Notes under the pieces: generated by a model
What the model saw: the letters and a program-made list of their open reading frames with translations, nothing else
Told to the model about the DNA's origin: nothing
The model's database searches: none
Shown here: positions 8,493 to 64,000 of the stretch, piece after piece
Layout of the letters: the number at the start of each line of letters is the position of its first letter
How positions within the stretch are numbered: the first letter of the stretch is position 1
DNA from: a virus
Length of the DNA: 64,000 nucleotides
Strand: one strand, 5' to 3'
Virus record (IMG/VR): IMGVR_UViG_3300035034_002581
Made by a program: the position numbers and the translations under genes

Positions 8493-8515
8493 AGTTGATA
8501 CTCCTCTTTTAAGTT

Positions 8516-8839
8516 CTACAACGTCTGTCGAATTAATTCAATTGCGTTTTCTTCTGGCATATTTCTAATTAGGCTTTTGTACAACTGATAGTCTCTAAAT
8601 ACTAAATCCTCCAAAACATCTGCAGGATCAGCATCTCTTGGGATAGCGTCTTGGCTCCGATCTCTACGCGTACTCTGAATGTACTTTTCAAGATCAGTCT
8701 TTAGGCTTAGTGGTGTTTCACCAAATGCACTTGTGTCGCTTCTGCTGAAATTACTACTAAAGTACATTGGATCATCGTCGATCATCTCCTGTAGTACTTC
8801 TTTAATTGATTCTCTGAGAAGCTTTCTTGTCTTGTTCAT
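8516..8839 (-). CDS. shared-leader family member 4
   Basis: The N-terminus is MNKTRKLLRESIKEVLQEMIDD. Confidence 0.4.
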   Translation of the reverse strand: MNKTRKLLRESIKEVLQEMIDDDPMYFSSNFSRSDTSAFGETPLSLKTDLEKYIQSTRRDRSQDAIPRDADPADVLEDLVFRDYQLYKSLIRNMPEENAIELIRQTL

Positions 8840-9585
8840 TTGATTGCCTGCCCGATTCGATCTGCTTTCTTAAATCTTTCTTCGATTACTACCCAGTCAA
8901 GCTCTTTCATCATTGAGTAGATGTAAGATCTTCTGTCATCTAGGTAATCTCTAAAGTATGCATGTTCCCAAACATCGATAACTACGACCGGGTAACAACC
9001 AACTGGAATTGATGTATCGTGAGATTCTACAAAGAAGTTAATGTATCTCTGCAAAAATGTACTATAAGCACACACAGCCCAACCAGAAGCACCAGACATT
9101 GCATTAGCTACAAGATCGTATTGCCAGTTGTCAAAATTACCAAAGTCTCGTTCTAGCCTCATGTAAGATAGTGAGTCCATTGTAACTTCACTGTGCACAT
9201 CACTAATGTTTGCAAAGTACAGTTCGTGCAAGTAGACTGCGTTCATGTAGAAGATCTCATTTTGCTTTAAAGATCTATAGGTTCTGAAGTCGCTCTTTCT
9301 ATCTACAGTGTCGAGCTCTGCACTTATTCTTGTAAGTTGCTCTGTGTAATTCTCATACAGCTTCTTGTGTGCATGCTTAGCTTTTTTTGAAAGAAGCTCT
9401 GTAGGCAAGTTATAAGTTTTTGCAAGTGCCACATACGATTCGTTTAGAGTACTAGATGAAGACTCTCGCTTTATGCCAAGATCTTTCTGTATTCCTTCTA
9501 ATACTTTTCGCTGTGTTTCTTTTAGATCAGTCAAGTTTATATTCCTTTTCGAGTTCTTTTCTCGAGACCGTAAATTCTTCACCAT
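8836..9585 (-). CDS. Fe/Mn superoxide dismutase-like protein with N-terminal extension
   Basis: The C-terminal motif VVVIDVWEHAYFRDY matches the Fe/Mn-SOD signature D-x-W-E-H-[STA]-[FY]-[FY]. An upstream His-rich helix (KHAHKKLYENY, LHELYF) is consistent with the metal ligands. A ~60-aa N-terminal extension is not typical of SOD. Confidence 0.65.
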   Translation of the reverse strand: MVKNLRSREKNSKRNINLTDLKETQRKVLEGIQKDLGIKRESSSSTLNESYVALAKTYNLPTELLSKKAKHAHKKLYENYTEQLTRISAELDTVDRKSDFRTYRSLKQNEIFYMNAVYLHELYFANISDVHSEVTMDSLSYMRLERDFGNFDNWQYDLVANAMSGASGWAVCAYSTFLQRYINFFVESHDTSIPVGCYPVVVIDVWEHAYFRDYLDDRRSYIYSMMKELDWVVIEERFKKADRIGQAIK

Positions 9586-9799
9586 CTGGTGTCATGAGCA
9601 CAATGTCATCTATACCTAGTTGGGATATTGTGTAAAGCAGGTTCGTCTTGTTGTGTCTGATCTTAAGTCCGACATCAAGCACAGTATGCTTGTCATCACC
9701 AAATCCTGATGTATCGAATTCTTGTAGATTCTGAAGATGCTTTTGATATGCTTCACGCATGAGAGTTATTAGCATCTTTTCATCAAGTACATTAGTCAT
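9527..9799 (-). CDS. hypothetical protein
   Basis: 90-aa ORF that overlaps the SOD-like gene start by ~59 nt. One of the two starts is probably mis-set. Confidence 0.25.
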   Translation of the reverse strand: MTNVLDEKMLITLMREAYQKHLQNLQEFDTSGFGDDKHTVLDVGLKIRHNKTNLLYTISQLGIDDIVLMTPDGEEFTVSRKELEKEYKLD

Positions 9800-10754
9800 T
9801 TAGGCCTCCTGTGATGCCCGCCATTCTGCGCCATTGTTCTAAGACAATTTTTTCTTCATCGTTGACCTTCTGTTCGACCTGAATGCCTTTGGTCTTAAGC
9901 ACGTCAAGTACGGCGTTGACAATTCCCATTGGGACTTTGTTTTCACCATACTTTGATTCGAGCGCCGCTTCTATTTCAGATCGTGACAATGTTTTGATTG
10001 ATTCGGGCTGTGTATCACTTGTGCGTGTATCAGATGATGTCGAAACTTCCTCGTCTTCGTCTCCATCTTCATCGCCCATTGCTGTATCAACAACATACTC
10101 AGCATCTTCATCAGATAGTGCTGAAGCAAGAGAGTCAGGTACAACATCCATAAACTGCTCTAATCCTGTTCCTGTTAGGTTCAGAATATCACCTCTAAGC
10201 TTTTTAGGTGTAAGTCCAAACCAATTATTACGCTTTCCAAATAAACGTGATAGGAAGTCATCAGGTGTAAAAGACTTCTTGATTTGGATGTTGAGATCTC
10301 TTAGGCCTTCTTTGTCAAGAATATCACCGATTGATTTTTCTTCTTTAATAAAGGCAGACTCTGATGTCACTCTACTTTGAAGCTGCTGGAGCTCTTGGTT
10401 CTGTTTAATTACTTCAACAGTGTTACCAATAGCGCTTAAAAGACCTGCTACTTTAGAAGTCATGATAGCAAACGAGCGTTTACTAGTTTTACCCCTGATA
10501 AGAGCTCTAAAGACAAATCGCGCATTTTTAACTGCTTTCTGGACAGCGAGCCTCGTATTTTCCATTTCAGGAGGCACTCTATCTGCGAATTGACTTAAAC
10601 TTTGTACTAACTTTGAGAATTCATCTTTTGAGAATTCTTCTTTCAAAAGAAAAGAAGCAACGGAGTTTTCTGATAACACTCTCTTCTCTAGAATCTCATT
10701 TATATACGCGCAACCTTCGTCGAGGGCGTGATTTGTTTTTTGACGATTAGTCAT
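9792..10754 (-). CDS. hypothetical protein with acidic C-terminal tail
   Basis: 320-aa ORF. The C-terminus is D/E-rich (DEDGDEDEEVSTSSDTRTSD). Confidence 0.35.
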   Translation of the reverse strand: MTNRQKTNHALDEGCAYINEILEKRVLSENSVASFLLKEEFSKDEFSKLVQSLSQFADRVPPEMENTRLAVQKAVKNARFVFRALIRGKTSKRSFAIMTSKVAGLLSAIGNTVEVIKQNQELQQLQSRVTSESAFIKEEKSIGDILDKEGLRDLNIQIKKSFTPDDFLSRLFGKRNNWFGLTPKKLRGDILNLTGTGLEQFMDVVPDSLASALSDEDAEYVVDTAMGDEDGDEDEEVSTSSDTRTSDTQPESIKTLSRSEIEAALESKYGENKVPMGIVNAVLDVLKTKGIQVEQKVNDEEKIVLEQWRRMAGITGGLND

Positions 10755-43234: not shown

Positions 43235-43867
43235 CTATCTCATAGCTTTCTCTTCTTGACAAGCATGTCGATCAGCTGTCTGAACTATAAGTGCTAGTGT
43301 CGGTTCATGCATCATGTAGTACCTGTTTTCTTCTGCGATTGGTCCATCATTTGTTCTGATTGCAATCCACTCGTCAAGTGTTAGGTAGACACCAAAATGC
43401 TGCAGCAGCCAAAGTCCTCTTTCTGCATTAGGCATCTTCTGCATGTCGTAGTTAATCTTGTAGAACTCTCCAAGGTTATCTCTTCGCCATTCATTGTCCT
43501 GATATTCGTAGTAGTCATCGGTCAAATCGCCGATCTTTCCGAAATCATGGAAAAGGCATGCCATAATCAAGGATTCAGAGTCTATTTTGTAACCAAATGA
43601 TTTACAGATCTTTTGTGCATTAGCTAAAACTCTAAGTGAGTGATCAACTAGTCCGCCAGGATAAGCAGCATGAAATCTTTCTTTTGATGATGCAGGGCAA
43701 AGCACAAGCCTATCACCAAAATGCTCTAAGAGGTGAAGTAGCTTTTCTGCTCTGTCTGGTTGCTGCTTAATGTTTGTACTTTTACACAGTTTAAGAAATG
43801 TGTTGTAGTTACTTTCAATCTTGTCTTCTTTAAGCATCTTTGACTTCCATGGGAAAGTTGTTGTCAA
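43235..43867 (-). CDS. HD-domain phosphohydrolase
   Basis: MACLFHDFGKIGDL is the HD motif. An upstream His and downstream Asp are consistent with an HD metal site. The length is 210 aa. Confidence 0.6.
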   Translation of the reverse strand: MTTTFPWKSKMLKEDKIESNYNTFLKLCKSTNIKQQPDRAEKLLHLLEHFGDRLVLCPASSKERFHAAYPGGLVDHSLRVLANAQKICKSFGYKIDSESLIMACLFHDFGKIGDLTDDYYEYQDNEWRRDNLGEFYKINYDMQKMPNAERGLWLLQHFGVYLTLDEWIAIRTNDGPIAEENRYYMMHEPTLALIVQTADRHACQEEKAMR

Positions 43868-45056
43868 AACCCTCTATCTGAGTGCCTTGTTGAATTATCT
43901 CATTTAAAGTATATTCATCTACTTCTGGATGTACATCAAGCAGAATTGCATCGTGAATAATCATAATAGGAGCAACTTTGATGCTGTACTTCTGGATGTG
44001 CTTGATTAGCTTATTGAACCCTTGCAATGCTAGATCGACTCCAGTTGACTGAACATGGTAGCTGATGAGTCCCGGGCCGTCACTTCTAGATGGATTCAGG
44101 ATTCTTCCATAATGATTTCTAACAAATCCACACTCGTCATATTCTTTTTTTAGCTTGTATTCCAGGGCACTTACGTTAAAGTGCTCCTTGACTTTTGACA
44201 TTACAACTGATGCGTTAATGGTTGAGCCCAGCATGCTCTGTAGTTTGGTATCACCGATACCATACAAGACGCCCATTACAATGATCTTTGCTTCTTTTCG
44301 TGTTATGTCGACATCTTTCAATGCTGTATTCATGACATGTGTGTATACATCGTCATCAGGTGTTTTTCCAACAAGAGATAGCAGAATTCTGGGCTCAAGT
44401 GAAACATAGTCTGCCTGAAGTATTCTGCCTCCTTCCCATCTGCTTTTGATCATATTTCTGTATTCTTTCTTTAGATGCAAGATTTTTGGTCCCGATTCTA
44501 TTGAAAGCCTTCCTGTTGCGTCACCCTTTTTGTAGACGATGGGTTGTGCAAAACCATCAGCGTCCGGTCTGAAAGATTCTACAGTACTTTTCTGACCGTT
44601 ATCTGATCCATTCTTATTAGCAGACCATAAAGATACGTCAATTGATGCTCTTTTAAGATTCAGAAGGCTGTTTCTAGTGTTTTTAAGCGTTTCAGAATAT
44701 GTTTTAGCATTTTCATCTTCAAAAACTTCCTGTGCTTTCTGGATGACACTCTTGACGTAACCTTTAAAAACATCAGGTGGTAAGATTTTTGACCACGGAA
44801 CATTAATCGGAACTTGATCCATGGTATCAACATCGTATATCTCAAAAAACTGTCTATCCCATTTTCCACCAGGTGAAAGTGAGATCTTTTTTCTCATAGC
44901 TTCACTTAGTGCTGATATTGAGAGAAGACACGACTTATCACCGATAGTCCAGAGATCAGTTTCTGATCTGTTTGACCACGTAAATGTGTTCTCTTGCTGA
45001 TCAACAATGAGATGCTGATCAGTTCCTAGCAATTTTTTATGTATGCAAATTTTCAC
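43830..45056 (-). CDS. family-A DNA polymerase polymerase-domain-only protein (no 3'-5' or 5'-3' exonuclease domain)
   Basis: Motif A is ILQADYVSLEPRIL (compare DYSQIELR). Motif B/O-helix is RKEAKIIVMGVLYGIG (compare RRxAKxxNFGxxYG). Motif C is IMIIHDAILL (compare HDE). It is only 408 aa and its start overlaps the HD gene by 38 nt. Confidence 0.6.
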   Translation of the reverse strand: MKICIHKKLLGTDQHLIVDQQENTFTWSNRSETDLWTIGDKSCLLSISALSEAMRKKISLSPGGKWDRQFFEIYDVDTMDQVPINVPWSKILPPDVFKGYVKSVIQKAQEVFEDENAKTYSETLKNTRNSLLNLKRASIDVSLWSANKNGSDNGQKSTVESFRPDADGFAQPIVYKKGDATGRLSIESGPKILHLKKEYRNMIKSRWEGGRILQADYVSLEPRILLSLVGKTPDDDVYTHVMNTALKDVDITRKEAKIIVMGVLYGIGDTKLQSMLGSTINASVVMSKVKEHFNVSALEYKLKKEYDECGFVRNHYGRILNPSRSDGPGLISYHVQSTGVDLALQGFNKLIKHIQKYSIKVAPIMIIHDAILLDVHPEVDEYTLNEIIQQGTQIEGFDNNFPMEVKDA

Positions 45057-45087: not shown

Positions 45088-47898
45088 TCATTCTCCATCT
45101 GCAATATCTTTATTAAGTATAGAGATTGCTGACTGAATAGAATTTATTGAAGATCGGAATTTTCCGTATGCGTCAATATTGATCATTTTAAAAGAAGATT
45201 CAAAATTCCCGGACTCGAGCTTATGCGTGAGGCCTACTATGCCGTATATGTTATCTACAGTCGTACCTGTGTCAAGATCTATGAATAATTGTTGCCCGAA
45301 GTTCATAAGCGGGCAACCCATAGTGTCCATTGACAGCTCTGTAGGCAGCATTTGCATAGGTACAATCTCACCATCCACTCCTGGAGCCTGTGACGTGTCA
45401 ATTAATCCAGCTCTCTGCATATGAACAGTGTTCAAAGCTGGATCTTGTAAACTTTGTACTGATATTTGTTTGATATTTGATGTAGAATTACCATATCTGA
45501 TTGTTGGAGCACTTTTTGCTATGAACTTTTTGATTCCTGATGGTGTTGCGGTGTCTGTAAGCTTATATGTGTGACTTCCACGAGTGATTTCTTCAATCAG
45601 GCCTGGTCCACCATCTTCTGTCGGAGTCGATGCAGCTTGCAAGACAGATTTCGCCAACTCAGTTTGCTTAGTCAAGTCTTCAACGTTGCTTCCGGCACTT
45701 GGCTCACCAAAAGTGCCGAGGTTTTTGTCTAACATCGCGTCTAAAAGTTTCTTAAACCCTAAATGTGGAGAAGATTGCTTGTCTGTTATATGAATCTTAA
45801 GAAGAGAAGGTCCGCTGTCACCTACAAATCGCTCTGCAGACTCACTTGATCCCAAAGGAACAGTCTCAATGTACATTGAGATCTCAGGCATCAAAAATTC
45901 ACCATCTGGGATACCAAGAGCCTTCATTCTCTTAGAAATTGATGAGTTTAGAATTGTAATGTCGTCATCTGCGTCTTGTGGGGGCTGCCTTTCACCATTT
46001 TTGAACTTTGTAGTCAAATCGAACTCAATGTTATTAGAAATTCCATAAGCATCGTTAGAAATGTCATCAATAAAGTTATTTGCAACATATTCGACAAATT
46101 CTGACAAGGTAATGTTAAATCTTCCGCGTGATTCGATGTTTTTCTGGAAATTTGTCGAAAAGTCCGATATATCGATTGGGAAAGACCCGATATTTGACGT
46201 TCTCATTGCTCCGGCTCCAGAATTGAAAGAGTAGAACAAGATCTGGACTTCGTCAAACTTTGCAGTTGATGCAAGAGGCTCTCCAACAAACAAAAGCAAC
46301 AATTTAGCAAATGAAACATACCCAGACTCGAGAGGGTTCCCAATTTGATCAAAAAATTGATTCAAATAAAACAATGGAGGATCTATTGTGTCTTTTCCCT
46401 TAATTGCAGCTAGTTTTCTTCTAAAAGAATCATCTAAAGTCGAATTTAACTGTCCAACAGCACCATCTTCACCATCAGTCCCGTCTGTACCGTATAAACC
46501 TACTAAGCTGTCCCTTAAGAGCTTTCCGTCAGACTCTATGTCACCATTTCTTGAGTCAGAAAGGTATTTGTCAATAGCTTTTTTGGCATCTTTACTAAGA
46601 TTCAAGGCTGATGTTGTGTCAGAAGTCGAATCTAAGAGTGTTGTTCCTCTTATTTCTTTAACACTTGCACTTCTCATCGTGTTATTCTTTATGTTTGAAA
46701 TAGCACGTGTTAGATTTTCAATCTGGTTAACGAGATCAGCGGTTTCTTTAGTTTCTGCAATCTTTGAAGTCGAAAAGTCCGTCACACCTTTCATAAAGAG
46801 CTCAACTGTGACGTTTACTTGTCCGCTATCATCGAATGTAAATGAAGAGTTCATTACACCGTACTTTTCACGCGTTCTCATACTGTTAATGAGCAGACCG
46901 TATGCATTATTTCCAGTGTTATCAGGGTGACTCCATCCATATTCAATTAAGAGTTCAACAGCGCTATATAGATCGGGCCTAACTAAGTCAGCAATCTCTC
47001 CAAGTCTTGATCTATCGTGTAAAACTAGTTGAAGCTTAGCTGTTTTGTACGATAACATGCCAAATGTAGGTACAACTTCTAATTCAAAGCTTTTAATTGA
47101 CAAAAATGGGCGAAACTTATCAATAATGGGAGATGATCGATTGCCGATGTTTGTTTCAAATGAGTCATTTCCTGGCACTAGAGTTTGTGGAGAAGTAAAA
47201 ATCTCCATTCCTGCACTCGTAAAGTCACGCTCTCCATCAAGAGTATTTTGTGTGACTGATGAAGCATTAATTATTGCTGCCGACTTCTCAGAAGTTATCG
47301 GATTGTTTCCAACAAGAAACTTATTGATTGACAATCCCTGAAGTTTGCCAGATGAGTCTAGTGGTTTATTCGGTGAAAGCATTTTAATGTCTAAATGAGG
47401 CATCGCACGCGACATTTCAACGGTCGGGATCGCTGTTAAAAAGAGCGCACACGCATCAGAAAATCTAGATGCAGGCGTAATGTTTGCCGGAAGTACCTGA
47501 ATGATAGATACAGATGTTGTGCTTTTGTTTGCGCTTGATCTATGTGTATTGACAACATCACCTGCCATTTCATTGATCGTGCCTTCTTTCCCGGTCTCTT
47601 GTTGGTAGTTAACAACAAGGGGAAGATTACTCCTATCTGCTTCGTACCAAATTAGCAAACTGTTTCCAAGTTCTTTTACATCATTATCGTCAAGCTGCTT
47701 AATGTCTTTGATGATCTCGTCAATTCTCTTTCCGCCTTCAATTACGTTCAAAAAGAAATCAATAGCTTTGTTTGATGCACTGTTATCCCTAGTTGTAGAG
47801 TTTACAGCTTGACGTATAACATCGTCTCGACCTTCGATCTCGTAGTATTTTTTAAGTTGTAAAACAGCTTCAGATAGCTGCTGGAAGTCAAATGCCAT
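45088..47898 (-). CDS. large tail/baseplate structural protein
   Basis: 936 aa. It is placed between the LysM tail protein and the replication module, with no catalytic motif. Confidence 0.35.
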   Translation of the reverse strand: MAFDFQQLSEAVLQLKKYYEIEGRDDVIRQAVNSTTRDNSASNKAIDFFLNVIEGGKRIDEIIKDIKQLDDNDVKELGNSLLIWYEADRSNLPLVVNYQQETGKEGTINEMAGDVVNTHRSSANKSTTSVSIIQVLPANITPASRFSDACALFLTAIPTVEMSRAMPHLDIKMLSPNKPLDSSGKLQGLSINKFLVGNNPITSEKSAAIINASSVTQNTLDGERDFTSAGMEIFTSPQTLVPGNDSFETNIGNRSSPIIDKFRPFLSIKSFELEVVPTFGMLSYKTAKLQLVLHDRSRLGEIADLVRPDLYSAVELLIEYGWSHPDNTGNNAYGLLINSMRTREKYGVMNSSFTFDDSGQVNVTVELFMKGVTDFSTSKIAETKETADLVNQIENLTRAISNIKNNTMRSASVKEIRGTTLLDSTSDTTSALNLSKDAKKAIDKYLSDSRNGDIESDGKLLRDSLVGLYGTDGTDGEDGAVGQLNSTLDDSFRRKLAAIKGKDTIDPPLFYLNQFFDQIGNPLESGYVSFAKLLLLFVGEPLASTAKFDEVQILFYSFNSGAGAMRTSNIGSFPIDISDFSTNFQKNIESRGRFNITLSEFVEYVANNFIDDISNDAYGISNNIEFDLTTKFKNGERQPPQDADDDITILNSSISKRMKALGIPDGEFLMPEISMYIETVPLGSSESAERFVGDSGPSLLKIHITDKQSSPHLGFKKLLDAMLDKNLGTFGEPSAGSNVEDLTKQTELAKSVLQAASTPTEDGGPGLIEEITRGSHTYKLTDTATPSGIKKFIAKSAPTIRYGNSTSNIKQISVQSLQDPALNTVHMQRAGLIDTSQAPGVDGEIVPMQMLPTELSMDTMGCPLMNFGQQLFIDLDTGTTVDNIYGIVGLTHKLESGNFESSFKMINIDAYGKFRSSINSIQSAISILNKDIADGE

Positions 47899-55250: not shown

Positions 55251-56034
55251 CGCATGCTGGGCACTCCGTCCATCCCTTCATGTCAATTCCAGGCTCGTTT
55301 TCTTCCATGAACTTTCTCAAAGCACGACTGTCACTAGCAGGCATGTTTCGAATGAATATGTTGATCTTGTTAGGATCTGAAATACCACCAACAGAGATTA
55401 TTGCTCTTCTAAGTCGCCCTGTTACTAATGTGTCTTTTGCAAAGCGCATCGTTTTTCTTCTACGATCTGCCTCTTGTAGAAGATCGTTTTCATCAGCACC
55501 TGTCAAGAACTTAAATAGGACGTTGTGTCCTGAACGTGGTAGCTTGAACTCAAATTCATTCTTGCCTTCTTCTGTAGGGTCAATTTTGAGTTTCTTAATA
55601 GGAAGCGCTGACAAATCGAACTCTGCTTCTACACCTTCACCACAACTACCACATGTAATTGATGCTTCGTATTCGCTCCCGTACCCTGTGATTCTATGTG
55701 CAACCATTATTGCGTTTCGATCTCCAGACAAGAGCGCGTCTGGAGAGACACCTGGCGATAAAATGCAAGATCTAAGAAGTTCTGTAATAACAGTGCCCTT
55801 CTTGATTAGCGCTCTTGATGTCAGGATGTCTTCTTGAACAGCAGTCATTGCAGATATTTCTACAGAATGCTTACCATAAAGTGGGCTATCTACTCCGTAA
55901 ACCCTTCCTTCTGATGGTAGTGGTGCTAGATCAACTGGAACGTCAATTCCGAAGTCGTCTTTCATTACATCACGCCTTGTAATACCATCGGATCGATCTC
56001 TACCGAAAACTTCGTTCTTTCTATCTTCTGACAA
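55192..56034 (-). CDS. tail assembly chaperone-like protein (zero-frame product)
   Basis: 280 aa with CGSCGEG...CPACGEQ zinc-ribbon-like Cys pairs. It is located between tube and tape measure. Confidence 0.35.
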   Translation of the reverse strand: MSEDRKNEVFGRDRSDGITRRDVMKDDFGIDVPVDLAPLPSEGRVYGVDSPLYGKHSVEISAMTAVQEDILTSRALIKKGTVITELLRSCILSPGVSPDALLSGDRNAIMVAHRITGYGSEYEASITCGSCGEGVEAEFDLSALPIKKLKIDPTEEGKNEFEFKLPRSGHNVLFKFLTGADENDLLQEADRRRKTMRFAKDTLVTGRLRRAIISVGGISDPNKINIFIRNMPASDSRALRKFMEENEPGIDMKGWTECPACGEQQEVNMPLGAKFFWPDS

Positions 56035-56148
56035 TTGTGACCTCTCAATACTTACACAAATTCTATTCTATGTCTACTAGAAGTAAATATCACAAATAGA
56101 AAAAGGCAGACACATTGTGTCTGCCTTTTCACCAAATAAGCTTTTAGT

Positions 56149-56862
56149 TTAGAGTTTAGCTAACATGTCGTCTAATGTCTGGAGTGATAGTGCAAGTCTG
56201 TCACCAGCTTTTCCGAGGCACATAGAGCGTCTAATTCTTGGAGTAAAGCTGTTGTGTAGGTAAAGCCAATCAGAAATAAGCTTCTTAGCTTTTGTCATTA
56301 CAATTGAGTCGTTGCTTTCGTATCCAATCGTGTTTCGTTCTCTTTCTCTTCTGTCACCAAATCCTTTAGGTCCTCTTTGCTTAGGACCTGCAGATGTGAC
56401 ACCACCAAAAGGAGCTTCTGCCAAACCAATCTTCTTCGCTTCTTTCATAATTGTCTCACGAAGTTCATCAGCAGTAAACTTTGTACCTTCGTGAAGCTCT
56501 CCGACAAGAGACTTAAGCGTGCTTTCAAGTTCTATGACAATGTCTGACATTTCTTGTCCTGCTTTACTTCTGCAAATAAAGCTATGCCATTTAGGGTTAA
56601 ACGCAGACAGATCTCTCAATGCTTGCTTAAGAGCATTTGTTGCATCTCTAGATGCTTGTGGTGAAAGCGTAGTAGGTGTAAAGTTTGAAGGCTCTGGAAC
56701 ATCCATAGGATCGTCAAACTGATTGTCAAATCGACGCGCGCCTCTTTGAGAAGGGCCTGCAGATGTGACACTACCAAAAGGAGCTTCACTTAGACTAGAC
56801 TCTTCTAGTTTTTTTATCTCCTCTCTTACGATTTGCTTAAACTCTTTAAGTTTAATTCTCAT
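56149..56862 (-). CDS. shared-leader family member with internal ~135-aa duplication
   Basis: The N-terminus is MRIKLKEFKQIVREEIKKLEES. EAPFGSVTSAGPSQRG and EAPFGGVTSAGPKQRG are repeated, with a ~33-nt near-identical DNA repeat. Confidence 0.4.
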   Translation of the reverse strand: MRIKLKEFKQIVREEIKKLEESSLSEAPFGSVTSAGPSQRGARRFDNQFDDPMDVPEPSNFTPTTLSPQASRDATNALKQALRDLSAFNPKWHSFICRSKAGQEMSDIVIELESTLKSLVGELHEGTKFTADELRETIMKEAKKIGLAEAPFGGVTSAGPKQRGPKGFGDRRERERNTIGYESNDSIVMTKAKKLISDWLYLHNSFTPRIRRSMCLGKAGDRLALSLQTLDDMLAKL

Positions 56863-56880
56863 CTTTTTATCTCCGTTAAT

Positions 56881-57369
56881 TTAGTACTGTAGGACTGCGT
56901 TATCAAATCGAAGTGTCAAAGTTATGTCTGAAATGTCGTTGCTTTCGTAATCTAAATCACCAAAGTTAATTGATGTTGGGAAAGCACCCTTAATGTCCCA
57001 GAGTTCAACAACAGTACCAACGGGATCTAGCATTTTAAGCTGGACATCGCGCTTGTAGAAATCTGCATATCCACCACGTGCGGATACAGATTCATAGATT
57101 AATCTTAGCCATTCCATAACCTGCTGAGCACCTGATGGTGCGATTGGGTCATGAAGTGTAATGTCAATTGTTTCGAACTTCGTTTTGCCTGCAAGGTAAC
57201 GCGTCGCATTAATGTATCCAATCTCAACTTCATCAGTTGAAATCGATGGTCTTGCAGCAATTTTCATCATGTAAGAATCGACTCCTTCAATTTGAAAAAC
57301 CCATCTAAACTTGCGCTTTGCTTCAAACTTGTTGGGTAACATGTCTGTTACGGAAAGTGTCTCTGCCAT
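56881..57369 (-). CDS. tail tube protein (T4 gp19-like)
   Basis: 162 aa. FEAKRKFRWVFQIEG is the typical gp19-family N-terminal motif. It is immediately downstream of the sheath genes. Confidence 0.65.
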   Translation of the reverse strand: MAETLSVTDMLPNKFEAKRKFRWVFQIEGVDSYMMKIAARPSISTDEVEIGYINATRYLAGKTKFETIDITLHDPIAPSGAQQVMEWLRLIYESVSARGGYADFYKRDVQLKMLDPVGTVVELWDIKGAFPTSINFGDLDYESNDISDITLTLRFDNAVLQY

Positions 57370-57417
57370 TTTAGAAAACTCCTATTACATTACTACATAT
57401 CATTAAGAACAAACTTA

Positions 57418-58143
57418 TTACCTCTTTGAGTCGAAAAGTACATTATAAAGAGACACTTTCGACTCCTTGACACCTTTGCGCCTATCAAGTATTTCGCGTG
57501 CGACCGATACTACACTCTTGTATATTTCTTGAGGTTCTTTGTCCGGAAAATCACCTGATTTGTATAGCTTTTGTGTGATTCTTCCTGCGAGCGAACTGTG
57601 ACCTTTAAGACCAGCAATATCACCGAGTTCTGTTGGGTTCATGGGCAGAACCTTTGCAATCTTGCGTCTTAGATCCTGATCATGTTCTCCTGTCCCTGAC
57701 TTTTTGGCAACTTCTACTGCCTTCATCGCATCTTCAATGTTAAGTTGTGGGTATTTTTTAATTATGTTCTGTGCAAGTGTCTTGATCATTCTGCCTGATA
57801 TTTCACTTGCATCGTACTGCCCAAAGACTTTTGACGCGTATCTAATTGCGACACCAATCTGAGCTGATTCAATCAATACTGACTCATTAACTACGCCCTG
57901 AAATACAAGCTCGTCCATGACGTCATCTAGAAGGTCGAAGTCAAAATTGGAAGGATCTGCATAGCCAGAACTTATAAGCTCATCGTGAACGAACGATTCA
58001 AGTTCGGACTCAATGTAATACTCGTCCCTGATCATGTCACCGTACTGTTGAGCAATATCACTGGCAATTTGGCTAGCAGACGGTGCTATAGCATTCATCT
58101 CTGTCAAAATCAAATTGCGCAGTGTAGCTTTGTTCAACCTCAT
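57418..58143 (-). CDS. shared-leader family member located between sheath and tube genes
   Basis: The N-terminus is MRLNKATLRNLILTEMNAIAPS. Confidence 0.4.
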   Translation of the reverse strand: MRLNKATLRNLILTEMNAIAPSASQIASDIAQQYGDMIRDEYYIESELESFVHDELISSGYADPSNFDFDLLDDVMDELVFQGVVNESVLIESAQIGVAIRYASKVFGQYDASEISGRMIKTLAQNIIKKYPQLNIEDAMKAVEVAKKSGTGEHDQDLRRKIAKVLPMNPTELGDIAGLKGHSSLAGRITQKLYKSGDFPDKEPQEIYKSVVSVAREILDRRKGVKESKVSLYNVLFDSKR

Positions 58144-58145
58144 GA

Positions 58146-61136
58146 TTATACCTCAGCACCTGCGTTTGTAACAACGAAGTCGATTCCGACGAACTCTGCT
58201 GTCTTAGTAGGCTGTACAAAGATTTGTCCTCGAATCGTCTTGTTTTCGATGTCTGCAGCCGACGTTGTTGTTGTATCAATTCTAACCCTGAATCTTTCAA
58301 CACCCTGAAGCTCTTGAATTCTTTGCAGTCTTGGACGAACTAGTGTTTCAAACTTAGATAGAGTTGTTGCTCTAGCTGGCTCAAAGATTAGTCGATCTGC
58401 AATCTGCTTGACTTGGCGTCTAACTTCAATTAGCAAGCGTCTTACGTTAACTCTGTCAAGTGAGCTTGCTGTTGAAAGAAGTGTCTTCTGACCCCATACT
58501 ATTGGACCCGATGATCCTGGGAACTTAGTAATTGGGTTAATGTCCACGTCGTAAAGCTCATCAAGGTTTGAGCGGTTAAGGTTGACCGATGATTCTACTG
58601 AAGAGTTTAGTGCACCTCTTGCGAAACCTGCTGGAGCTGTCCATGGGTGACCAAGAGAGTCGTTAAGTGCAAAAGCACCTAGTACTACAACAGAAGGAGG
58701 AACCTTAACATTTGTAAATGTTGTTGGATCTTCCACAATCTGATCAGGGAAGTAAGCTGCAGCGAAAGAAGTATCAAGATTTCTGTTACTAAATGATGCC
58801 ACAGTGTTTGCAACAGAGACTTCTTGTTCTGATCCTGTCACGACAGTATTTAGAGTATCACGTTCTTCGACGTCCATGATGAACATTGCGTCGAATCGGT
58901 CTTCTGTCGTAATAATGGCTTGATCTGTGACGATTGAGTGTCTAATACCAGGAATAGCAAGCAGCTTAATATCAACTTCTGATTTCTCACCAATAACATC
59001 CAGAGCCTTTGTATAAGCGCTAACTGTAGCTGCTTCATCTTGTCCTCTAGAAGCGTCTGACATCTCTTCTACAATGGCGGCATTGGTAAGTTTTGCAGCC
59101 TTCTCATTGAAGATCCTAACTCCGTCGAATCCACCCTGTGTAAAGAAGGTAAACTTAGCATAACGTCTAGCAGTTAGGTCAGCAAGGTCTGTCTCAATAT
59201 TGAAACCACGTGTCTTGTTAGTTTCATTTGCAACAATACCACCAGTCCTTGAGTATGAAGCTGATGCCCATAGCTTAGGATCTGCTAAGCCGTTGGCACC
59301 TGTAACTACCTGAACTCTTTCTAGTGAGAACAAGTTATTGTTAAATCTGTCTGCATCATATACCGTACCGTCAGAATCTGCTGTACCCTCGTTGTCACCA
59401 ACCCAAGACTTCTGCCATACTGTGTGGTAGTGTGGGTAGTACTGTGTGTAACTGTCAAGGCTCTTATCTGAGACGAGTGTCTTGTTAGTTTCTGCAAGGT
59501 CAGTCTTCTTCTCAAACTGAACTCCCCAATGCAAGTTAGCGTTGACTGATTTCTTCGGACCTGTCCCAACAGCGACGTTGTCTCTGAATGGAACTGGAAG
59601 CTCTACGGCTCTTTCAATCGAAGTGCCCTGACCCGTAACGTGTACTCCCACATCTTCAGTGCCTGGGTTTAAAATACTACTACCTGATGTTACAAGGTGC
59701 TTAGGTCCTCTAAATCCTACAGGAAGCGAAACATCAGGGACTTCAGCATTGTTAACTGATGGTGCCATCTCGACCCTAATGTACTTTGATACGTTAGGGA
59801 AACTGCCATCAAGAACCAGCTTTTGTCCGTCTTCGCTCTTGTCGAAGTCAAAGTAGAAGTGCTGATCGCCGATTACCTTTGCAATGTATCTATCGTTAGA
59901 TGGATCCAAGCTAAGTTTAAAGAAGCTTTCAAGGACAAATTGATCTTCATCTGTATCAGACCAACGTCTAACAACTAGATCAAATGTTCCGTACTGATCA
60001 CGTTCTGATGTAGATGGCGCAATGTTTCTGATAGAAATCTTGAACTTGCCGTTTGCATACTCGCCGTCATCTAGTGAGTGAATCTTGAAGAGGTTCTTCG
60101 GAGACCCACCAAAGTTCTGCGAAACAACGAAAGGGGATTCCGGAGTTCTAAAGCGATCTTCGTAACTCTCGAAGTTTGGAACCGCAGATGAACCAGAGTT
60201 TCTTGTAAGTGTTGTCGTTGTCAAGAAACCAACAGGCTCTAGAGACGCGCCGCCGAATGTTGCTGCAGCGTCAATGATACCAGTGCCTGTAACAACTGCG
60301 AATGATGGGTGAATATCATAGTGTGTGTAAAGGTAGTGTCCAGTCTCTTCTATAAGGAGTGGATCTGTGTTTAAGACATTAGGGAAGTAATTGCTAGAGT
60401 CAACATCAAAAGATGCAGTAACAACACCAGGATACTGGCTAGTTGGCTTGTGTCCGTTAAGTATGACAACAAACTCTTGCTTACTACTCGATAGATCAAT
60501 AGTACCAGTGATTGCACCAGCAGGCCCCGCGGACGTCGCAGGTGTAGAACCATCAGGTGCTGTGTTGTTGTCTGTTAGAGAACCCGACATTGTTGGAACG
60601 ACACCAGAAGCTGCGAAGATGACGCCTCGAACAATAGGATGAGCCTTTGAGCTATCTTGAATACCAGCAGCACTGAAGACTGTGCTTCCTGCAGATTCTG
60701 ACATGTAGCAGCCCAAAAAGTGTGCTCGACCCGGAACACCATCAGATACAGCGAATCTGTTCGCGCCTAGCAGACCTGATGGCTGAGGCTGTTCGTCACC
60801 TACGACGAAGCCCGCACGAGTAACCTTACCGGCATTGTCACCAGTAGAAGTTCTCTTTTTACCATCACCGACGCCGAGGACTTTTAGATATGTAGCAGCT
60901 TGAGAGTTCTGAAGCCACTCATTGACAGCGAGCGGTCCGAACTTCTCTCCGTCGGTATCTCCAAAGACAACTTTGAAGTCGCTAAATTTTGCAAAAACAA
61001 TAGGCACGAAAGCAGGACCCTTTACTGATGTCCCGATGACACCTGCAGGAACACCCACAGGCTCAACATTTGAAGGACCGGATAGGCCTATTTCTCTTGC
61101 GCTAACGCCCGCACTTCTATAAGTGAGTTCAGACAT
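58146..61136 (-). CDS. contractile tail sheath protein (paralog 2)
   Basis: 996 aa. The C-terminal region IVWGQKTLLS...RVNVRRLLIEVRRQV...LIFEPA...RVRIDTTTTSAADIENKTIRGQIFVQPTKTAEFVGIDFVVTN matches conserved sheath C-domain features (WG.RT, VNVRR, FEPN-like, PAEFV-like). Confidence 0.75.
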   Translation of the reverse strand: MSELTYRSAGVSAREIGLSGPSNVEPVGVPAGVIGTSVKGPAFVPIVFAKFSDFKVVFGDTDGEKFGPLAVNEWLQNSQAATYLKVLGVGDGKKRTSTGDNAGKVTRAGFVVGDEQPQPSGLLGANRFAVSDGVPGRAHFLGCYMSESAGSTVFSAAGIQDSSKAHPIVRGVIFAASGVVPTMSGSLTDNNTAPDGSTPATSAGPAGAITGTIDLSSSKQEFVVILNGHKPTSQYPGVVTASFDVDSSNYFPNVLNTDPLLIEETGHYLYTHYDIHPSFAVVTGTGIIDAAATFGGASLEPVGFLTTTTLTRNSGSSAVPNFESYEDRFRTPESPFVVSQNFGGSPKNLFKIHSLDDGEYANGKFKISIRNIAPSTSERDQYGTFDLVVRRWSDTDEDQFVLESFFKLSLDPSNDRYIAKVIGDQHFYFDFDKSEDGQKLVLDGSFPNVSKYIRVEMAPSVNNAEVPDVSLPVGFRGPKHLVTSGSSILNPGTEDVGVHVTGQGTSIERAVELPVPFRDNVAVGTGPKKSVNANLHWGVQFEKKTDLAETNKTLVSDKSLDSYTQYYPHYHTVWQKSWVGDNEGTADSDGTVYDADRFNNNLFSLERVQVVTGANGLADPKLWASASYSRTGGIVANETNKTRGFNIETDLADLTARRYAKFTFFTQGGFDGVRIFNEKAAKLTNAAIVEEMSDASRGQDEAATVSAYTKALDVIGEKSEVDIKLLAIPGIRHSIVTDQAIITTEDRFDAMFIMDVEERDTLNTVVTGSEQEVSVANTVASFSNRNLDTSFAAAYFPDQIVEDPTTFTNVKVPPSVVVLGAFALNDSLGHPWTAPAGFARGALNSSVESSVNLNRSNLDELYDVDINPITKFPGSSGPIVWGQKTLLSTASSLDRVNVRRLLIEVRRQVKQIADRLIFEPARATTLSKFETLVRPRLQRIQELQGVERFRVRIDTTTTSAADIENKTIRGQIFVQPTKTAEFVGIDFVVTNAGAEV

Positions 61137-61172
61137 TTAAAAATCTCCCAGTGTACATGTAGTAACTATCTG

Positions 61173-64000
61173 TTAGTTGAACGATACACCCGAATTCGTG
61201 ATAATGAAGTCAACTGCAACAAACTCGAACGTTCTCGTAGGTGTAACTATGATACGACCGTTTAGTCTATTTGACTCAATATCCTCTGATGTATTGTTTG
61301 ATTCATCCATCACAATATCGAATCTTTCGATTCCAGACTGAGTTTGAATGAGTCCTAATGGTGGCTTGACTAGCTTGATAAATCTTTGTCTAGTCGATGC
61401 TGTATTTTGTTCGAAAACAAATCTTTGAGCAATATCAATGACCTGCTTCTTAATCTCAAGCATGAGCCTTCTTACGTTAACTCTGTCAAGAGCAGATTGT
61501 GCCTGCTGCAGAGTTTTCTGTCCCCAAACAACGTATCCCTGTCTTGGGAATGTAGCAATAGGGTTGATTCGTGCATCATGCAGACTATCTCTATCTGCCT
61601 TATTGAGCCTAACTTCAACATTTGTGACAAAGTCAAGTGAAGCTCTGTTAAAACCGGCAGGAGCGTACCAAGGGTAAGATGATTTATCGTTGAAGGCAAG
61701 TGCTCCGAGTGCAGGAATTGAAGACGGAACCTTGACGCGACGCTTATTGACCGGGTCATCAATGAAGACGTCTGGGAAGTATGTTGCTACGTAACTGTTG
61801 TCAATAGCTCTTCCATTAAACTGTTCCTTCGTCTTTCTCACATCAGGTTTAGCCGTCGATGAATCGAACAGTCGAACTCCATCTTCGTCGTAAGAAACTG
61901 GGTCGAGAATGTACATAGCCAATGCGTACTCTCTTACCTTAGTAGATGCGTAGTCCGTTACAAAACTATCTCTCATGCCCGGTATTGTCAATATGTTTGT
62001 ATTGACTGTGAACGGATCAGTCATGATGTCTGTCGCAGCGCGATATGACTTAACAGCGTTGTTGTTTTGACCTACTCCGCCAACGTTAGAGGAAAGACCT
62101 GGTGAAACAAAGCTTGAAGCGGCGCCGCCACCTGTATCACTTGATGCTGCTTGATCATTCATTCTTGATGCATTAGGGTCAAGGACGTTAAATCCATCGA
62201 ATCCGCCGCCGAGAACTGTTGTGTACTTAGTAAACTCTGAGAACCTGTTAAACTCTGCAGAGGAAGTAAGTGCTACAAGTGTCGCAAGAGTAATTCTATC
62301 TAGACTTGAATCTGTAATTCTAAATCCAGTTACGTCAGGTACGCCATTTCTGATGTACGCCATTTCTTTTGCGTGTTCTCTAACAGAAGCTGTCAAATCT
62401 GCAACTGCACCGTTGCTAAATGCAACCTTTGCAAGTGTAAACTTGTTGTTGTTAAATTTGTCTGCGCCCGATCCTGTCACTAGCGCGTCTAGCTTCTTAA
62501 TGCCCAAGAATCTTGTGTATGACTCAATAAGTGGGTTTGCTCTTGATCCAGCATTTGAGTTGTAAATTGCGTTTGATACAGTTCCTGACTTAGGAAGTCT
62601 TTCAAACTTTACACCCCAATGAAGTCTATTGTCGACTAGTTCACCAATTCCTGGCTTGCCTGTGAATCCACCTGATGTAGATACAGCGCCCTTCGTAACC
62701 TTAAATCTAAATGGTAGTGGTGGCACGATTGATCCGGAAAGTACTCCGCCCGCAGCATCTTCTGCCGCAAACGCAAGACGTCGAGACAATACATCGCCTT
62801 CTCCAGGAAGTGCAACTACTGGATTGTCAGTCAGTGTATCAGAAGTTTTTAGTGCTTCAATACCACGGAAGCCGAATGGAAGTGCTCCGTCTGGGACAGA
62901 TCGCTTTTCAACTCCGGGTTCCATGATGACACGAATGTAGTTAGAGCGATTCGGGTACTTGCCACTGATCACAATTCGTCTATCATCAGCGCTATCAGCG
63001 TCGAAGTTATAGAATGCCTTCTTGTCACCAATTGCTCTTGCAATGTAGTTCTGTGATCTTGGGTCTAGAGAAACATTAGGATATCTCTCAAGAACTTGCT
63101 GATCAGTGTCATTATCATCCCACTTACGAACAGATACAGAGAACGTTCCATATGGGTTTGCAGGGTTAGATGACTTCTTAAGATCAGTAATTGCAATCTT
63201 GTACTTGGAGTTTGAGTATGCTCCATCATCTAGCGCTTCGAATCTAAACAGGTCATATTCTGTAGAACCATAAGGCTGTGAAATAAACCTTGTAGTTGTT
63301 GGTGTAGTATATCTGGTATCGAATCTACCGAATAGGTTGCGGAATATAACAGCGGTATCACCAGAAACCTCAGAGGTTAACAGGGAACCCGAAGTGATTG
63401 CAATTGAATCTGATTCTGTTGACACAGTTGCAAGTTCATTCTCAACCGTAAAGTCCGCATACAGCAAGTGCTCTTCTTCCACAAATCTATCAGGATCGGT
63501 GTTGAGAATCTTGCCGATGTAATTAGAGTTGTCAGGGTCGAGTGATGCTGTCAGTATTCTAAGCCCTGACAAACCATCGCCCGTTGAGAAAGCAGGCGTC
63601 GAACTTGAAATAACAAGCTTGAATAGCCCTGCGCTCGTTACAGTTGCTTGGTCATTAGCAGTATGACTAAAAGTTTCACCAGTTCCGTTGAGAACCATCA
63701 TTCTCGTGCCCGATGGCATCAAAACCATTGCTCTAACAAGTGAAGCAAAGTTATCTGTTGACGTTCCAACACTGTCATTCTGTGTTAAAGATGGGTAACC
63801 GACTGCTTCTGATGCTGACACAAAGTGTTTTGCAACCAAGAATTGTACAGCTCCGTTGTGACGGCCCAAGCTATCGTCAACGACTTCTGATGAAGTAAGA
63901 CTAAAGCCTGCATTTTTGACAGTACCTTTTGCCCTTGTTGCTTCAATATCAGATGAAGTATCGTTTGCACCTGCTCCAAGAACTCTAAGATACGTAACCG
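61173..64000 (-). CDS. contractile tail sheath protein (paralog 1; N-terminus beyond window end)
   Basis: It is paralogous to 58146..61136 (NRLHWGVKFE/NLHWGVQFE, PYGTFSVSVRKWDDNDTDQQVLE/QYGTFDLVVRRWSDTDEDQFVLE, and VNVRRLMLEIKKQVIDIAQRFVFEQN...FEFVAVDFIITN). The table start (TTG at 63869) is not the real start, because the frame stays open through 64000. Confidence 0.75.
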   Translation of the reverse strand, partial: VTYLRVLGAGANDTSSDIEATRAKGTVKNAGFSLTSSEVVDDSLGRHNGAVQFLVAKHFVSASEAVGYPSLTQNDSVGTSTDNFASLVRAMVLMPSGTRMMVLNGTGETFSHTANDQATVTSAGLFKLVISSSTPAFSTGDGLSGLRILTASLDPDNSNYIGKILNTDPDRFVEEEHLLYADFTVENELATVSTESDSIAITSGSLLTSEVSGDTAVIFRNLFGRFDTRYTTPTTTRFISQPYGSTEYDLFRFEALDDGAYSNSKYKIAITDLKKSSNPANPYGTFSVSVRKWDDNDTDQQVLERYPNVSLDPRSQNYIARAIGDKKAFYNFDADSADDRRIVISGKYPNRSNYIRVIMEPGVEKRSVPDGALPFGFRGIEALKTSDTLTDNPVVALPGEGDVLSRRLAFAAEDAAGGVLSGSIVPPLPFRFKVTKGAVSTSGGFTGKPGIGELVDNRLHWGVKFERLPKSGTVSNAIYNSNAGSRANPLIESYTRFLGIKKLDALVTGSGADKFNNNKFTLAKVAFSNGAVADLTASVREHAKEMAYIRNGVPDVTGFRITDSSLDRITLATLVALTSSAEFNRFSEFTKYTTVLGGGFDGFNVLDPNASRMNDQAASSDTGGGAASSFVSPGLSSNVGGVGQNNNAVKSYRAATDIMTDPFTVNTNILTIPGMRDSFVTDYASTKVREYALAMYILDPVSYDEDGVRLFDSSTAKPDVRKTKEQFNGRAIDNSYVATYFPDVFIDDPVNKRRVKVPSSIPALGALAFNDKSSYPWYAPAGFNRASLDFVTNVEVRLNKADRDSLHDARINPIATFPRQGYVVWGQKTLQQAQSALDRVNVRRLMLEIKKQVIDIAQRFVFEQNTASTRQRFIKLVKPPLGLIQTQSGIERFDIVMDESNNTSEDIESNRLNGRIIVTPTRTFEFVAVDFIITNSGVSFN

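What the first reader, a model, noticed from the sequence alone, without database searches (positions are those of the whole stretch)
58146..64000. Two tandem, paralogous, unusually large contractile sheath genes
Consecutive ~900-1000-aa proteins share conserved blocks (NRLHWGVKFE/NLHWGVQFE, PYGTFSVSVRKWDDNDTDQQVLE/QYGTFDLVVRRWSDTDEDQFVLE, RVNVRRLMLEIKKQV/RVNVRRLLIEVRRQV, FEFVAVDFIITN/AEFVGIDFVVTN). Both have the sheath C-terminal domain signature. Most myoviruses have one sheath gene, so two divergent copies in tandem suggest a heteromeric sheath or specialised insertion domains. The upstream copy's annotated TTG start is an artefact, since the ORF continues past the window end.
Basis: seen in the sequence. 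Interest (0 to 1): 0.5.

Follow-up and report, generated by a model that had tools for sequence, protein, structure and literature searches.

The report
Two tandem paralogous phage tail-sheath genes
An uncultivated aquatic T4-like phage has two adjacent, anciently duplicated tail-sheath genes of about 1000 residues, both intact and equally conserved in every relative examined, so its contractile sheath is probably built from two proteins; this is rare in phages but has a known precedent in phage PaBG.

Summary
Window 58146-61136(-) encodes a complete 996-aa sheath protein ("B"). Window 61173 to beyond 64000(-) encodes its paralog ("A"), which is cut by the window end and is 1020 aa on the source contig. 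A and B are colinear (35% identity, E 3e-138). Both match sheath profiles, and both give confident AF2 models whose best fold match is T4 gp18.

The pair is not a curiosity of this genome. In 68 of 68 related loci with enough flank, A is followed by B between a gp15-like gene and the single gp19 tube gene. A and B form reciprocally monophyletic clades (bootstrap 100/100). This points to one ancient duplication, independent of the one in Pseudomonas phage PaBG/Lu11.

Both copies are under equal, strong purifying selection (dN 0.177 each against the nearest relative). They sit 36 nt apart with no terminator-like site between them. Both have Shine-Dalgarno sites and among the strongest codon bias in the window.

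Best reading: a two-component sheath around one tube. Whether both fill the trunk or one forms specialised end rings is unresolved. Two-protein sheaths are already known (PaBG; Afp2/3/4 in eCIS), and so are 1000-aa or larger sheath proteins. I rate this a new member of a known kind, of moderate interest.

The parts
61173..64000 (-). Sheath paralog A, C-terminal 941 of 1020 residues (residues 80-1020). The ORF runs off the window end.
   Evidence: P0121, 100% identical, 1020 aa. Pfam and PHROG sheath matches. AF2 pLDDT 87.7, pTM 0.87. Best fold match T4 gp18, 9mkb, E 5.7e-18.
58146..61136 (-). Sheath paralog B, complete, 996 aa.
   Evidence: P0001. Pfam and PHROG matches. AF2 pLDDT 85.4, pTM 0.83. 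Best fold match T4 gp18, 9mkb, E 6.3e-19.
61137..61172 (-). 36-nt A-B spacer carrying the Shine-Dalgarno site of B (GGGAGA). No terminator-like site.
   Evidence: Sequence. The terminator scan finds nothing in the spacer.
61071..61136 (-). N-terminal arm of B (residues 1-22, 'MSELTYRSAGVSAREIGLSGPS'), unstructured in the monomer model. The equivalent arm of A lies outside the window.
   Evidence: pLDDT below 50 for residues 1-22 of B and 1-21 of A. 27 of the first 50 aligned positions are identical between A and B. It resembles the 'SPG...E.DLS' start of the Mel-JY01, immuto and JSE gp18 sheaths.
58173..59033 (-). Conserved C-terminal sheath core of B (residues 702-988; Pfam Phage_sheath_1 + Phage_sheath_1C).
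   Evidence: This is the densest block of columns conserved in both families.
61200..61835 (-). Conserved C-terminal sheath core of A (full-length residues 801-1012).
   Evidence: fragment residues 722-933.
60552..60746 (-). Insertion hot spot in B (residues ~131-195), where larger orthologs carry 110-375-aa Ala/Gly/Thr-rich modules.
   Evidence: B_L066, B_L095, B_L096, B_L054, B_L008.
63561..63878 (-). Equivalent insertion hot spot in A (full-length residues ~120-225).
   Evidence: A_L066, A_L024.
59928..59996 (-). Conserved block QYGTFDLVVRRWSDTDEDQFVLE in a middle domain of B. It contains residues invariant across both families (F385, R390, D394, D396, E403).
63087..63155 (-). Matching block PYGTFSVSVRKWDDNDTDQQVLE in A.
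56881..57369 (-). The only gp19-type tail tube gene found in the module (162 aa).
   Evidence: Pfam Phage_T4_gp19 7.7e-10 and PHROG 4542 5e-32.
56100..56130 (-). Strong terminator-like hairpin (14-bp stem plus T run). It is the first convincing one downstream of A, so it is the likely end of the sheath-tube transcription unit.

Best explanation
Both genes encode functional gp18-type contractile-sheath subunits that arose from one ancient tandem duplication. They are expressed together as part of the late tail operon (gp15-like, A, B, a 241-aa ORF, the gp19 tube, a 237-aa ORF, then a terminator). Both are built into the sheath around a single kind of tube protein, giving a two-component sheath. 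Each paralog keeps the parts needed to be a lattice member. These are the disordered N-terminal arm and the C-terminal core, which in solved sheaths interlock neighbouring subunits and face the tube. Their outer middle domains have diverged and serve as a platform for lineage-specific insertions. Shown here: sheath identity, paralogy, age and universality of the pair, equal purifying selection, and the operon-like layout. Inferred: co-assembly in one tail and roughly equal abundance, for example alternating layers or positions.
For: Sheath identity: profile matches, and confident AF2 models with T4 gp18 and phage KP1 sheath as top fold matches for both proteins. The context is gp13, gp15-like, A, B, gp19 tube, hub, and a 1010-aa ORF at the tape-measure position by synteny with the immuto phage. 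Conservation of the pair: A then B on the same strand in L006, L007, L008 and L155 and in 68 of 84 loci checked (80 from IMG/VR). All 16 single-copy loci are cut by a contig end. Single old duplication: A clade 100%, B clade 100%, A+B 97% bootstrap. Equal constraint: mean column conservation 0.696 (A) and 0.699 (B), with 162 columns conserved in both and 26 fixed differently in each. Against the nearest relative, dN is 0.177 for both, amino-acid identity is 76.5% for both, and synonymous sites are saturated. Expression hints: a 36-nt spacer without a terminator, SD sites on both genes, and the lowest ENC of all ORFs of 800 aa or more in the window (43.7 and 45.5 against 48.5-50.9), with similar codon usage (r = 0.88). 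The N-terminal ~50 and C-terminal ~250 residues are the most similar parts of A and B. Precedent: PaBG has two sheath paralogs, both identified as SDS-PAGE bands of the virion (PMC7412058). The AFP sheath is polymerised from Afp2, Afp3 and Afp4 (PMC12961389; PMC6899500).
Against: There is no proteomic, stoichiometric or structural datum for any member of this clade, and none is cultivated. Equal conservation and codon bias are also compatible with an essential minor component. The arm and core conservation between A and B is the general conservation seen in all sheaths, so it does not prove cross-compatibility. In PVC-type eCIS the extra sheath paralogs are confined to the baseplate-proximal layers (from my own knowledge, not checked here). 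Only one tube gene is present, whereas PaBG and Lu11 each carry two tube paralogs next to one of their sheath genes.
Confidence: 0.58

Rival explanations
1. Major/minor division of labour. One paralog forms the whole trunk. The other forms only one or a few specialised rings, either at the baseplate (initiating polymerisation and relaying the contraction trigger) or at the neck under the gp15-like terminator. This would resemble Afp4 or Pvc3/Pvc4 in eCIS.
For: Multi-paralog sheaths in eCIS include position-specific members. PDB entries for the AFP and PlPVC1 baseplates contain several distinct sheath chains that match both models (6rao_C/D/E, 9qgl_2A/3A/4A). Each paralog has its own fixed residues (26 type-II columns). 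A is always the copy next to the gp15-like gene.
Against: A and B have the same length and domain order, the same degree of conservation and the same dN. Both show among the strongest codon bias in the window. Both independently acquire large surface insertions at the same hot spot, which is easier to understand if both are widely exposed along the tail.
Confidence: 0.27
2. Alternative use. Individual virions use either A or B, giving two tail types, or the phage switches between them with conditions.
For: None directly. Both look self-sufficient as sheath subunits.
Against: The genes are 36 nt apart in one orientation with no terminator-like site or strong promoter-like site between them. No invertible or regulatory element was seen. 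Strict co-retention of both genes in 68 of 68 loci over deep divergence argues that both are needed at once.
Confidence: 0.06
3. One copy is a decaying or non-structural duplicate, or the duplication is an assembly artefact.
For: None beyond the bare fact of duplication.
Against: Both are intact ~1000-aa ORFs in more than 100 orthologs each, down to 44-57% identity. dN/dS is about 0.06 where it can be computed. The copies are only 35% identical, so no assembler could have created them. The same arrangement occurs in independent assemblies from JGI, ENA, Logan and NCBI.
Confidence: 0.03

Closest known systems
Two-component tail sheath of Pseudomonas phage PaBG and its Lu11 relatives (gp76 + gp213; Kurochkina et al. 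2018 Virology 515:46; PMC7412058)
   Same: There are two paralogous sheath proteins produced by gene duplication, with similar divergence (38% identity in PaBG, 35% here). In PaBG both proteins were found in the virion.
   Different: The duplications are independent: PaBG/Lu11 form their own clade at 99% bootstrap, outside A+B. The PaBG genes are ~118 kb apart, whereas these are adjacent. PaBG proteins are 528-547 aa against ~1000 aa here. PaBG and Lu11 also have two tube paralogs, whereas here there is one tube gene. The clade here is uncultivated and has no proteomics.
Afp2/Afp3/Afp4 and Pvc2/Pvc3/Pvc4 sheath paralogs of extracellular contractile injection systems
   Same: Several tandem sheath paralogs polymerise around one tube protein (PMC12961389, PMC6899500). 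Their core folds match both models at E 1e-9 to 1e-11.
   Different: Those are ~350-420-aa minimal sheaths in bacterial eCIS loci. This is a phage: gp23 capsid, gp13 and gp15 neck genes lie upstream and replication genes lie in the window. The proteins here have about 570 extra residues of outer domains.
T4 gp18 tail sheath
   Same: It is the best structural match for both paralogs (9mkb, E ~6e-19 and ~6e-18, TM normalised to gp18 0.51-0.53). The neighbours are the same (a gp15-like gene upstream, gp19 tube downstream).
   Different: T4 has a single 659-aa sheath gene. Sequence identity is only 12-14%.
Single-copy sheaths of Microcystis phage Mel-JY01 (812 aa) and Flavobacterium immuto phages (709 aa)
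   Same: These are the closest sequence relatives among deposited phages (34-37% identity over the matched segments, which cover 42-61% of the query). They share the sheath, tube, hub, TMP order.
   Different: They have one sheath gene, which is shorter, and they fall outside the A+B clade.
Very large multi-domain ('type 3') sheath proteins, e.g. cyanophage S-TIM5 (1137 aa), S-CBWM1 (1492 aa), and metagenomic huge phages (up to 1283 aa; PMC9230969)
   Same: The size class is the same, and so is the principle of outer-domain insertions on a conserved core.
   Different: I did not check their copy number here. They are only distant structural matches.

Membership tests
gp18-type contractile tail sheath (Pfam Phage_sheath_1 / Phage_sheath_1C; PHROG 23) | Sequence signature of the conserved C-terminal core | tested here: met
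   Both proteins match PF04984 (E 1.4e-7 and 1.6e-6) and PF17482 (E 2.3e-5 and 5.6e-6), at or just under the gathering scores. Both match PHROG 23 at 3e-49 and 1e-50.
gp18-type contractile tail sheath (Pfam Phage_sheath_1 / Phage_sheath_1C; PHROG 23) | Sheath fold | tested here: met
   AF2 pLDDT 85-88. The top Foldseek PDB matches are the T4 gp18 and phage KP1 sheaths, followed by eCIS, pyocin and phiKZ sheaths, all at probability 1.00.
gp18-type contractile tail sheath (Pfam Phage_sheath_1 / Phage_sheath_1C; PHROG 23) | Flexible N-terminal arm and C-terminal strand used for inter-subunit interlocking | tested here: inconclusive
   Residues 1-22 are disordered in both monomer models. The N-terminal motif and the C-terminal 'EF..DF..TN.G' are conserved in both families. 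No multimer model could be run.
gp18-type contractile tail sheath (Pfam Phage_sheath_1 / Phage_sheath_1C; PHROG 23) | Gene context next to the tail tube and tail terminator | tested here: met
   The order is gp15-like, A, B, (241-aa ORF), gp19 tube, 237-aa ORF, hub, 83-aa ORF, then a 1010-aa ORF at the tape-measure position.
gp18-type contractile tail sheath (Pfam Phage_sheath_1 / Phage_sheath_1C; PHROG 23) | Polymerises around the tube and contracts | not testable with these tools
   This needs virions or recombinant polysheaths.
Two-component phage tail sheath (PaBG type) | Two paralogous full-length sheath genes in one phage genome | tested here: met
Two-component phage tail sheath (PaBG type) | Common descent with the PaBG/Lu11 duplication | tested here: not met
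   PaBG gp76, gp213 and Lu11 gp61 form a separate clade (99%), and A+B is monophyletic (97%). The resemblance is therefore convergent. This is not a member of the 'Lupandier' lineage.
Two-component phage tail sheath (PaBG type) | Both proteins present in the virion | not testable with these tools
   No cultured member exists and no proteome was available.
Two-component phage tail sheath (PaBG type) | Accompanying pair of tube paralogs | tested here: not met
   There is one gp19 homolog in the module. The 241-aa and 237-aa neighbours have no tube match. PaBG and Lu11 have two tube genes.
Extracellular contractile injection system (Afp/PVC-like) | Bacterial locus lacking capsid and replication genes | tested here: not met
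   A gp23 capsid gene lies upstream on the source contig. DNA polymerase, helicase, UvsX and SSB genes lie in the window.

The most novel reading that the evidence does not exclude
The tail trunk is an obligate A/B heteropolymer, for example alternating A6 and B6 layers that double the helical repeat. It would have been fixed once and kept for a very long time in a globally distributed clade of uncultivated aquatic phages, on contigs of up to ~375 kb. This would be a third independent origin of a paralog-built contractile sheath, beside PaBG and the eCIS, and the two outer surfaces would evolve separately as platforms for new domains.
Probability: 0.4. Interest if true: 0.6.

Novelty: new member of a known kind. 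Interest (0 to 1): 0.36.

Why it matters
Contractile sheaths are usually treated as homopolymers of one protein. A clade in which two paralogs are co-retained without exception would show that heteromeric sheaths evolve repeatedly: here, in PaBG/Lu11, probably in LR756508.1 and in a MAG contig, and in eCIS. Such a clade offers a natural system for asking what a second subunit type adds, for example lattice stability, control of contraction, or two independent surfaces for adhesion domains. It also matters for annotation, because pipelines that expect one sheath gene may treat the second as redundant. The value is limited by the existing PaBG precedent and by the lack of any cultivated member.

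Tried and rejected
- **Nucleotide search against deposited phages.** Megablast of 56000-64000 against 50,697 records found no match. tblastn gave at best 35% identity and 70% coverage. The clade therefore has no deposited phage genome.
- **Host inference from MAG labels.** Close relatives sit in bins labelled Patescibacteria, Halobacteriovorax, Methylococcaceae, Flavobacteriales and 'archaeon'. I read these as mis-binned phage contigs that say nothing about the host.
- **Other clues to identity.** No tRNA genes are present in the window. UvsX gave no close cultured relative.
- **dN/dS.** Synonymous sites are saturated even against the nearest relative (pS 0.73-0.74), so only dN and one rough ratio could be used.
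- **Promoter scan.** It is not above chance (23 sites against 16.4 +/- 3.7) and I did not use it.
- **Pfam on the inserted modules of larger orthologs.** No domain was recognised.
- **Literature.** Searches for other descriptions of duplicated sheath genes found only the PaBG papers and one sentence in PMC9230969. The original PaBG sheath paper is not held.
- **Not possible here.** Multimer structure prediction of A-A, A-B and B-B contacts could not be run. Model coordinates could not be accessed, so domain boundaries rest on secondary structure and alignment only.
- **Older-duplication idea.** LR756508.1's pair might represent the same duplication. I did not adopt this: its copy s2 groups with single-copy Mel-JY01 (98%) and s1 lies outside A+B (87%). 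A distance tree cannot exclude long-branch effects.
Full report
**1. What is in the window**

The minus strand carries two consecutive long ORFs. B spans 58146-61136 (996 aa, ATG start). A begins at 61173 and runs upward. The ORF listing gives A a TTG start at 63869. However, translating 63600-63998(-) shows an open frame right to the window end, with sheath-like sequence upstream of that TTG.

An identical protein (P0121, 1020 aa) and the identical B (P0001) occur together on public contigs of 56.7 and 179.6 kb. There A starts with ATG behind an AAGGAG site. The window thus lacks A's first 79 residues.

**2. Paralogy and sheath identity**

A and B align at 35% identity over 826 residues, E 3e-138. 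They are colinear from end to end. About half of the positions are identical in the first 100 and in the last ~250 residues, and most gaps fall in between.

- Both proteins match Pfam Phage_sheath_1 and Phage_sheath_1C at about the gathering score, and PHROG 23 'tail sheath' at about 1e-50.
- AlphaFold2 with an 89-sequence alignment gave confident models: B pLDDT 85.4, pTM 0.83; A pLDDT 87.7, pTM 0.87.
- The best PDB matches for both are T4 gp18 in the new portal-neck-tail structure (9mkb, E ~6e-19 and ~6e-18) and the T4-like phage KP1 sheath. eCIS, pyocin, phiKZ and P1 sheaths follow.
- In both models the first ~22 residues are unstructured. This is the expected behaviour of the N-terminal arm, which becomes ordered only when it joins a neighbouring subunit in an assembled sheath. 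That property of solved sheath structures is established knowledge and was not tested here.

**3. Surroundings**

On the source contig the order is gp23 capsid ... gp13-like, gp15-like, A, B, a 241-aa ORF, the gp19-type tube (162 aa), a 237-aa ORF, a T4_baseplate/hub protein, an 83-aa ORF, a 1010-aa ORF at the tape-measure position, and a 1022-aa ORF. The tape-measure assignment rests on synteny with the immuto phage.

Further into the window lie replication genes: DNA polymerase fragment, SSB, UvsX, exonuclease and DnaB-type helicase. This is a phage with a T4-like morphogenetic module, not a tailocin or eCIS.

Between A and B there are 36 nt containing B's GGGAGA ribosome-binding site and no terminator-like structure. 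The first strong terminator-like hairpin downstream is at 56130-56100, after the 237-aa ORF. I infer a single sheath-tube transcription unit.

A and B have the lowest effective number of codons among all ORFs of 800 aa or more in the window (45.5 and 43.7, against 48.5-50.9). Their codon usage is similar (r = 0.88). This is weak but consistent evidence that both are highly expressed.

**4. Do relatives have one copy or two?**

Each paralog has its own large set of orthologs in public metagenomes. More than 100 proteins of ~1000 aa were listed for each, at 52-77% identity to the query.

- Three distant relatives have gp15-like, A, B, tube: contigs of 355 kb from an NCBI assembly, 375 kb, and 31.5 kb. 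So does the nearest relative.
- A scan of IMG/VR returned at least 600 matching stretches.
- I classified every sheath ORF in 84 loci (the 80 loci kept from that scan plus L005-L008). In 68 loci, A is followed by B on the same strand.
- The remaining 16 loci are all cases where the contig ends before the neighbour could appear.
- No informative locus has a single copy.

**5. Age and independence of the duplication**

A bootstrapped neighbour-joining tree (827 columns, 100 replicates) gave the following support:

| Grouping | Bootstrap |
|---|---|
| A clade | 100% |
| B clade | 100% |
| A+B together | 97% |
| PaBG gp76, PaBG gp213 and Lu11 gp61 (a separate clade) | 99% |

The single-copy sheaths of Microcystis phage Mel-JY01 and the Flavobacterium immuto phage lie outside A+B. 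The pair therefore arose once at the base of this clade and is convergent with the PaBG case.

Other pairs exist elsewhere:
- The 484-kb uncultured phage LR756508.1 has two 824-aa copies 1 kb apart, 31% identical to each other.
- A MAG contig (L100) has two tandem copies of ~580 aa, 53% identical.

Sheath duplication therefore seems to recur.

**6. Selection**

- Mean column conservation is 0.696 in the A family and 0.699 in the B family.
- 162 alignment columns are conserved in both families.
- 26 columns are fixed to different residues in each family, and they are spread along the whole length.
- Against the nearest relative, both proteins are 76.5% identical and both have dN = 0.177. This lies between the tube (0.141) and the gp15-like protein (0.288). 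Synonymous sites are saturated, and the ratio is about 0.06 where it can be computed.

Neither copy is decaying, and neither evolves faster than the other.

**7. The extra length**

The conserved core is the first ~90 residues plus the last ~330. About 570 mostly beta-strand residues in between form the outer domains.

Orthologs range from ~970 to ~1500 aa. In all cases examined except A_L021, where no insertion of at least 25 aa was detected, the excess is one or more Ala/Gly/Thr-rich modules inserted at the same place: B residues ~131-195 and A residues ~120-225. These insertions occur independently in A and in B. Pfam recognises no domain in them.

Sheaths of this size are not unprecedented. 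BFVD matches include S-WAM1 (932 aa), S-TIM5 (1137 aa) and S-CBWM1 (1492 aa). A survey of sheath evolution lists metagenomic huge-phage sheaths of up to 1283 aa (PMC9230969).

**8. How it most likely works**

Both proteins keep every element that a lattice member needs. Both are retained without exception, constrained equally, and apparently expressed together and strongly. The most economical reading is a sheath built from both proteins around one tube protein.

The precedent is direct. [quoted passage not shown] In eCIS the sheath is polymerised from Afp2, Afp3 and Afp4 (PMC12961389; PMC6899500).

I cannot decide whether A and B share the trunk, or whether one is confined to a few rings at the baseplate or neck, as some eCIS paralogs are. 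I put the shared-trunk reading at about 0.58 and the major/minor reading at about 0.27. The shared-trunk reading is favoured by the equal rates, equal architecture, equal codon bias, and parallel acquisition of surface insertions. Alternative use and pseudogene/artefact explanations are unlikely or excluded (section 6).

**9. Comparison and novelty**

It works like a two-component sheath of the PaBG type, but it is not a member of that lineage. The duplication is independent, the genes are adjacent, the proteins are twice as long, and there is one tube gene rather than two.

[quoted passage not shown] The clade has no deposited phage genome.

I class this as a new member of a known kind. It is a solid and widely conserved example, but it is neither a new principle nor a surprise to a tail specialist. 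Interest: 0.36.

Noticed in passing
L074 6252-6998; L075 1210-1902; L039 ~4411-5156: In some relatives a free-standing homing-endonuclease gene sits exactly between sheath A and sheath B. In L074 it matches GIY-YIG + NUMOD3 + I-HmuI NUMOD-like domains, Pfam E 7.8e-10. In L075 there is only a weak NUMOD3 hint, below the Pfam cut-off. L039 has a gap of the same size that I did not inspect.
   Followed up: partly
L001 (LR756508.1) 4464-6938 and 7953-10427; L100 3587-5335 and 5371-7104: There are other tandem sheath pairs outside the A/B clade. A 484-kb uncultured phage has two 824-aa copies (31% identical), and a MAG contig has two copies of ~580 aa (53% identical). LR756508 copy s1 is sister to A+B (87%) while s2 groups with single-copy Mel-JY01 (98%). 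This hints at either an older duplication or long-branch attraction.
   Followed up: partly
window 56149-56862 (-): This is a 237-aa ORF between the tube and hub genes. It has an internal repeat (EAPFG[S/G]VTSAGP[S/K]QRG...), the strongest codon bias in the window (ENC 38.7), and no Pfam or PHROG match. It could be a tail assembly chaperone or a minor tail protein.
   Followed up: no
window 57418-58143 (-): This is a 241-aa ORF wedged between sheath B (2-nt gap) and the tube gene. It has no family match. In relatives this position is empty (L006, L008) or holds ORFs of other sizes (L007, L155), so the slot is variable.
   Followed up: no
L066 3046-6972 and 6998-11434; L095 2132-6655; L096 3992-8194: These are much larger sheath orthologs (A 1309 aa; B 1401-1508 aa). 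They carry repeated Ala/Gly/Thr-rich modules of ~110-375 aa at one hot spot, and Pfam recognises no domain in them.
   Followed up: partly
L093-L097 (GTDB genome contigs): Close relatives of this phage are binned into MAGs labelled Patescibacteria, Halobacteriovorax, Methylococcaceae, Flavobacteriales and 'archaeon'. They are almost certainly phage contigs contaminating the bins.
   Followed up: no
window 43830-45056 (-) and 45088-47898 (-): A 408-aa ORF matches only the C-terminal part of DNA polymerase profiles (PHROG 17, profile positions 969-1210). It follows a 936-aa ORF with no match. The polymerase may be split or highly diverged.
   Followed up: no
L002 (Lu11) 9068-10145; L009 (PaBG) 662-1732: PaBG and Lu11 each have two tandem tail-tube paralogs next to one of their sheath genes. 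Their two-component sheath therefore comes with a duplicated tube gene, unlike the clade studied here.
   Followed up: no
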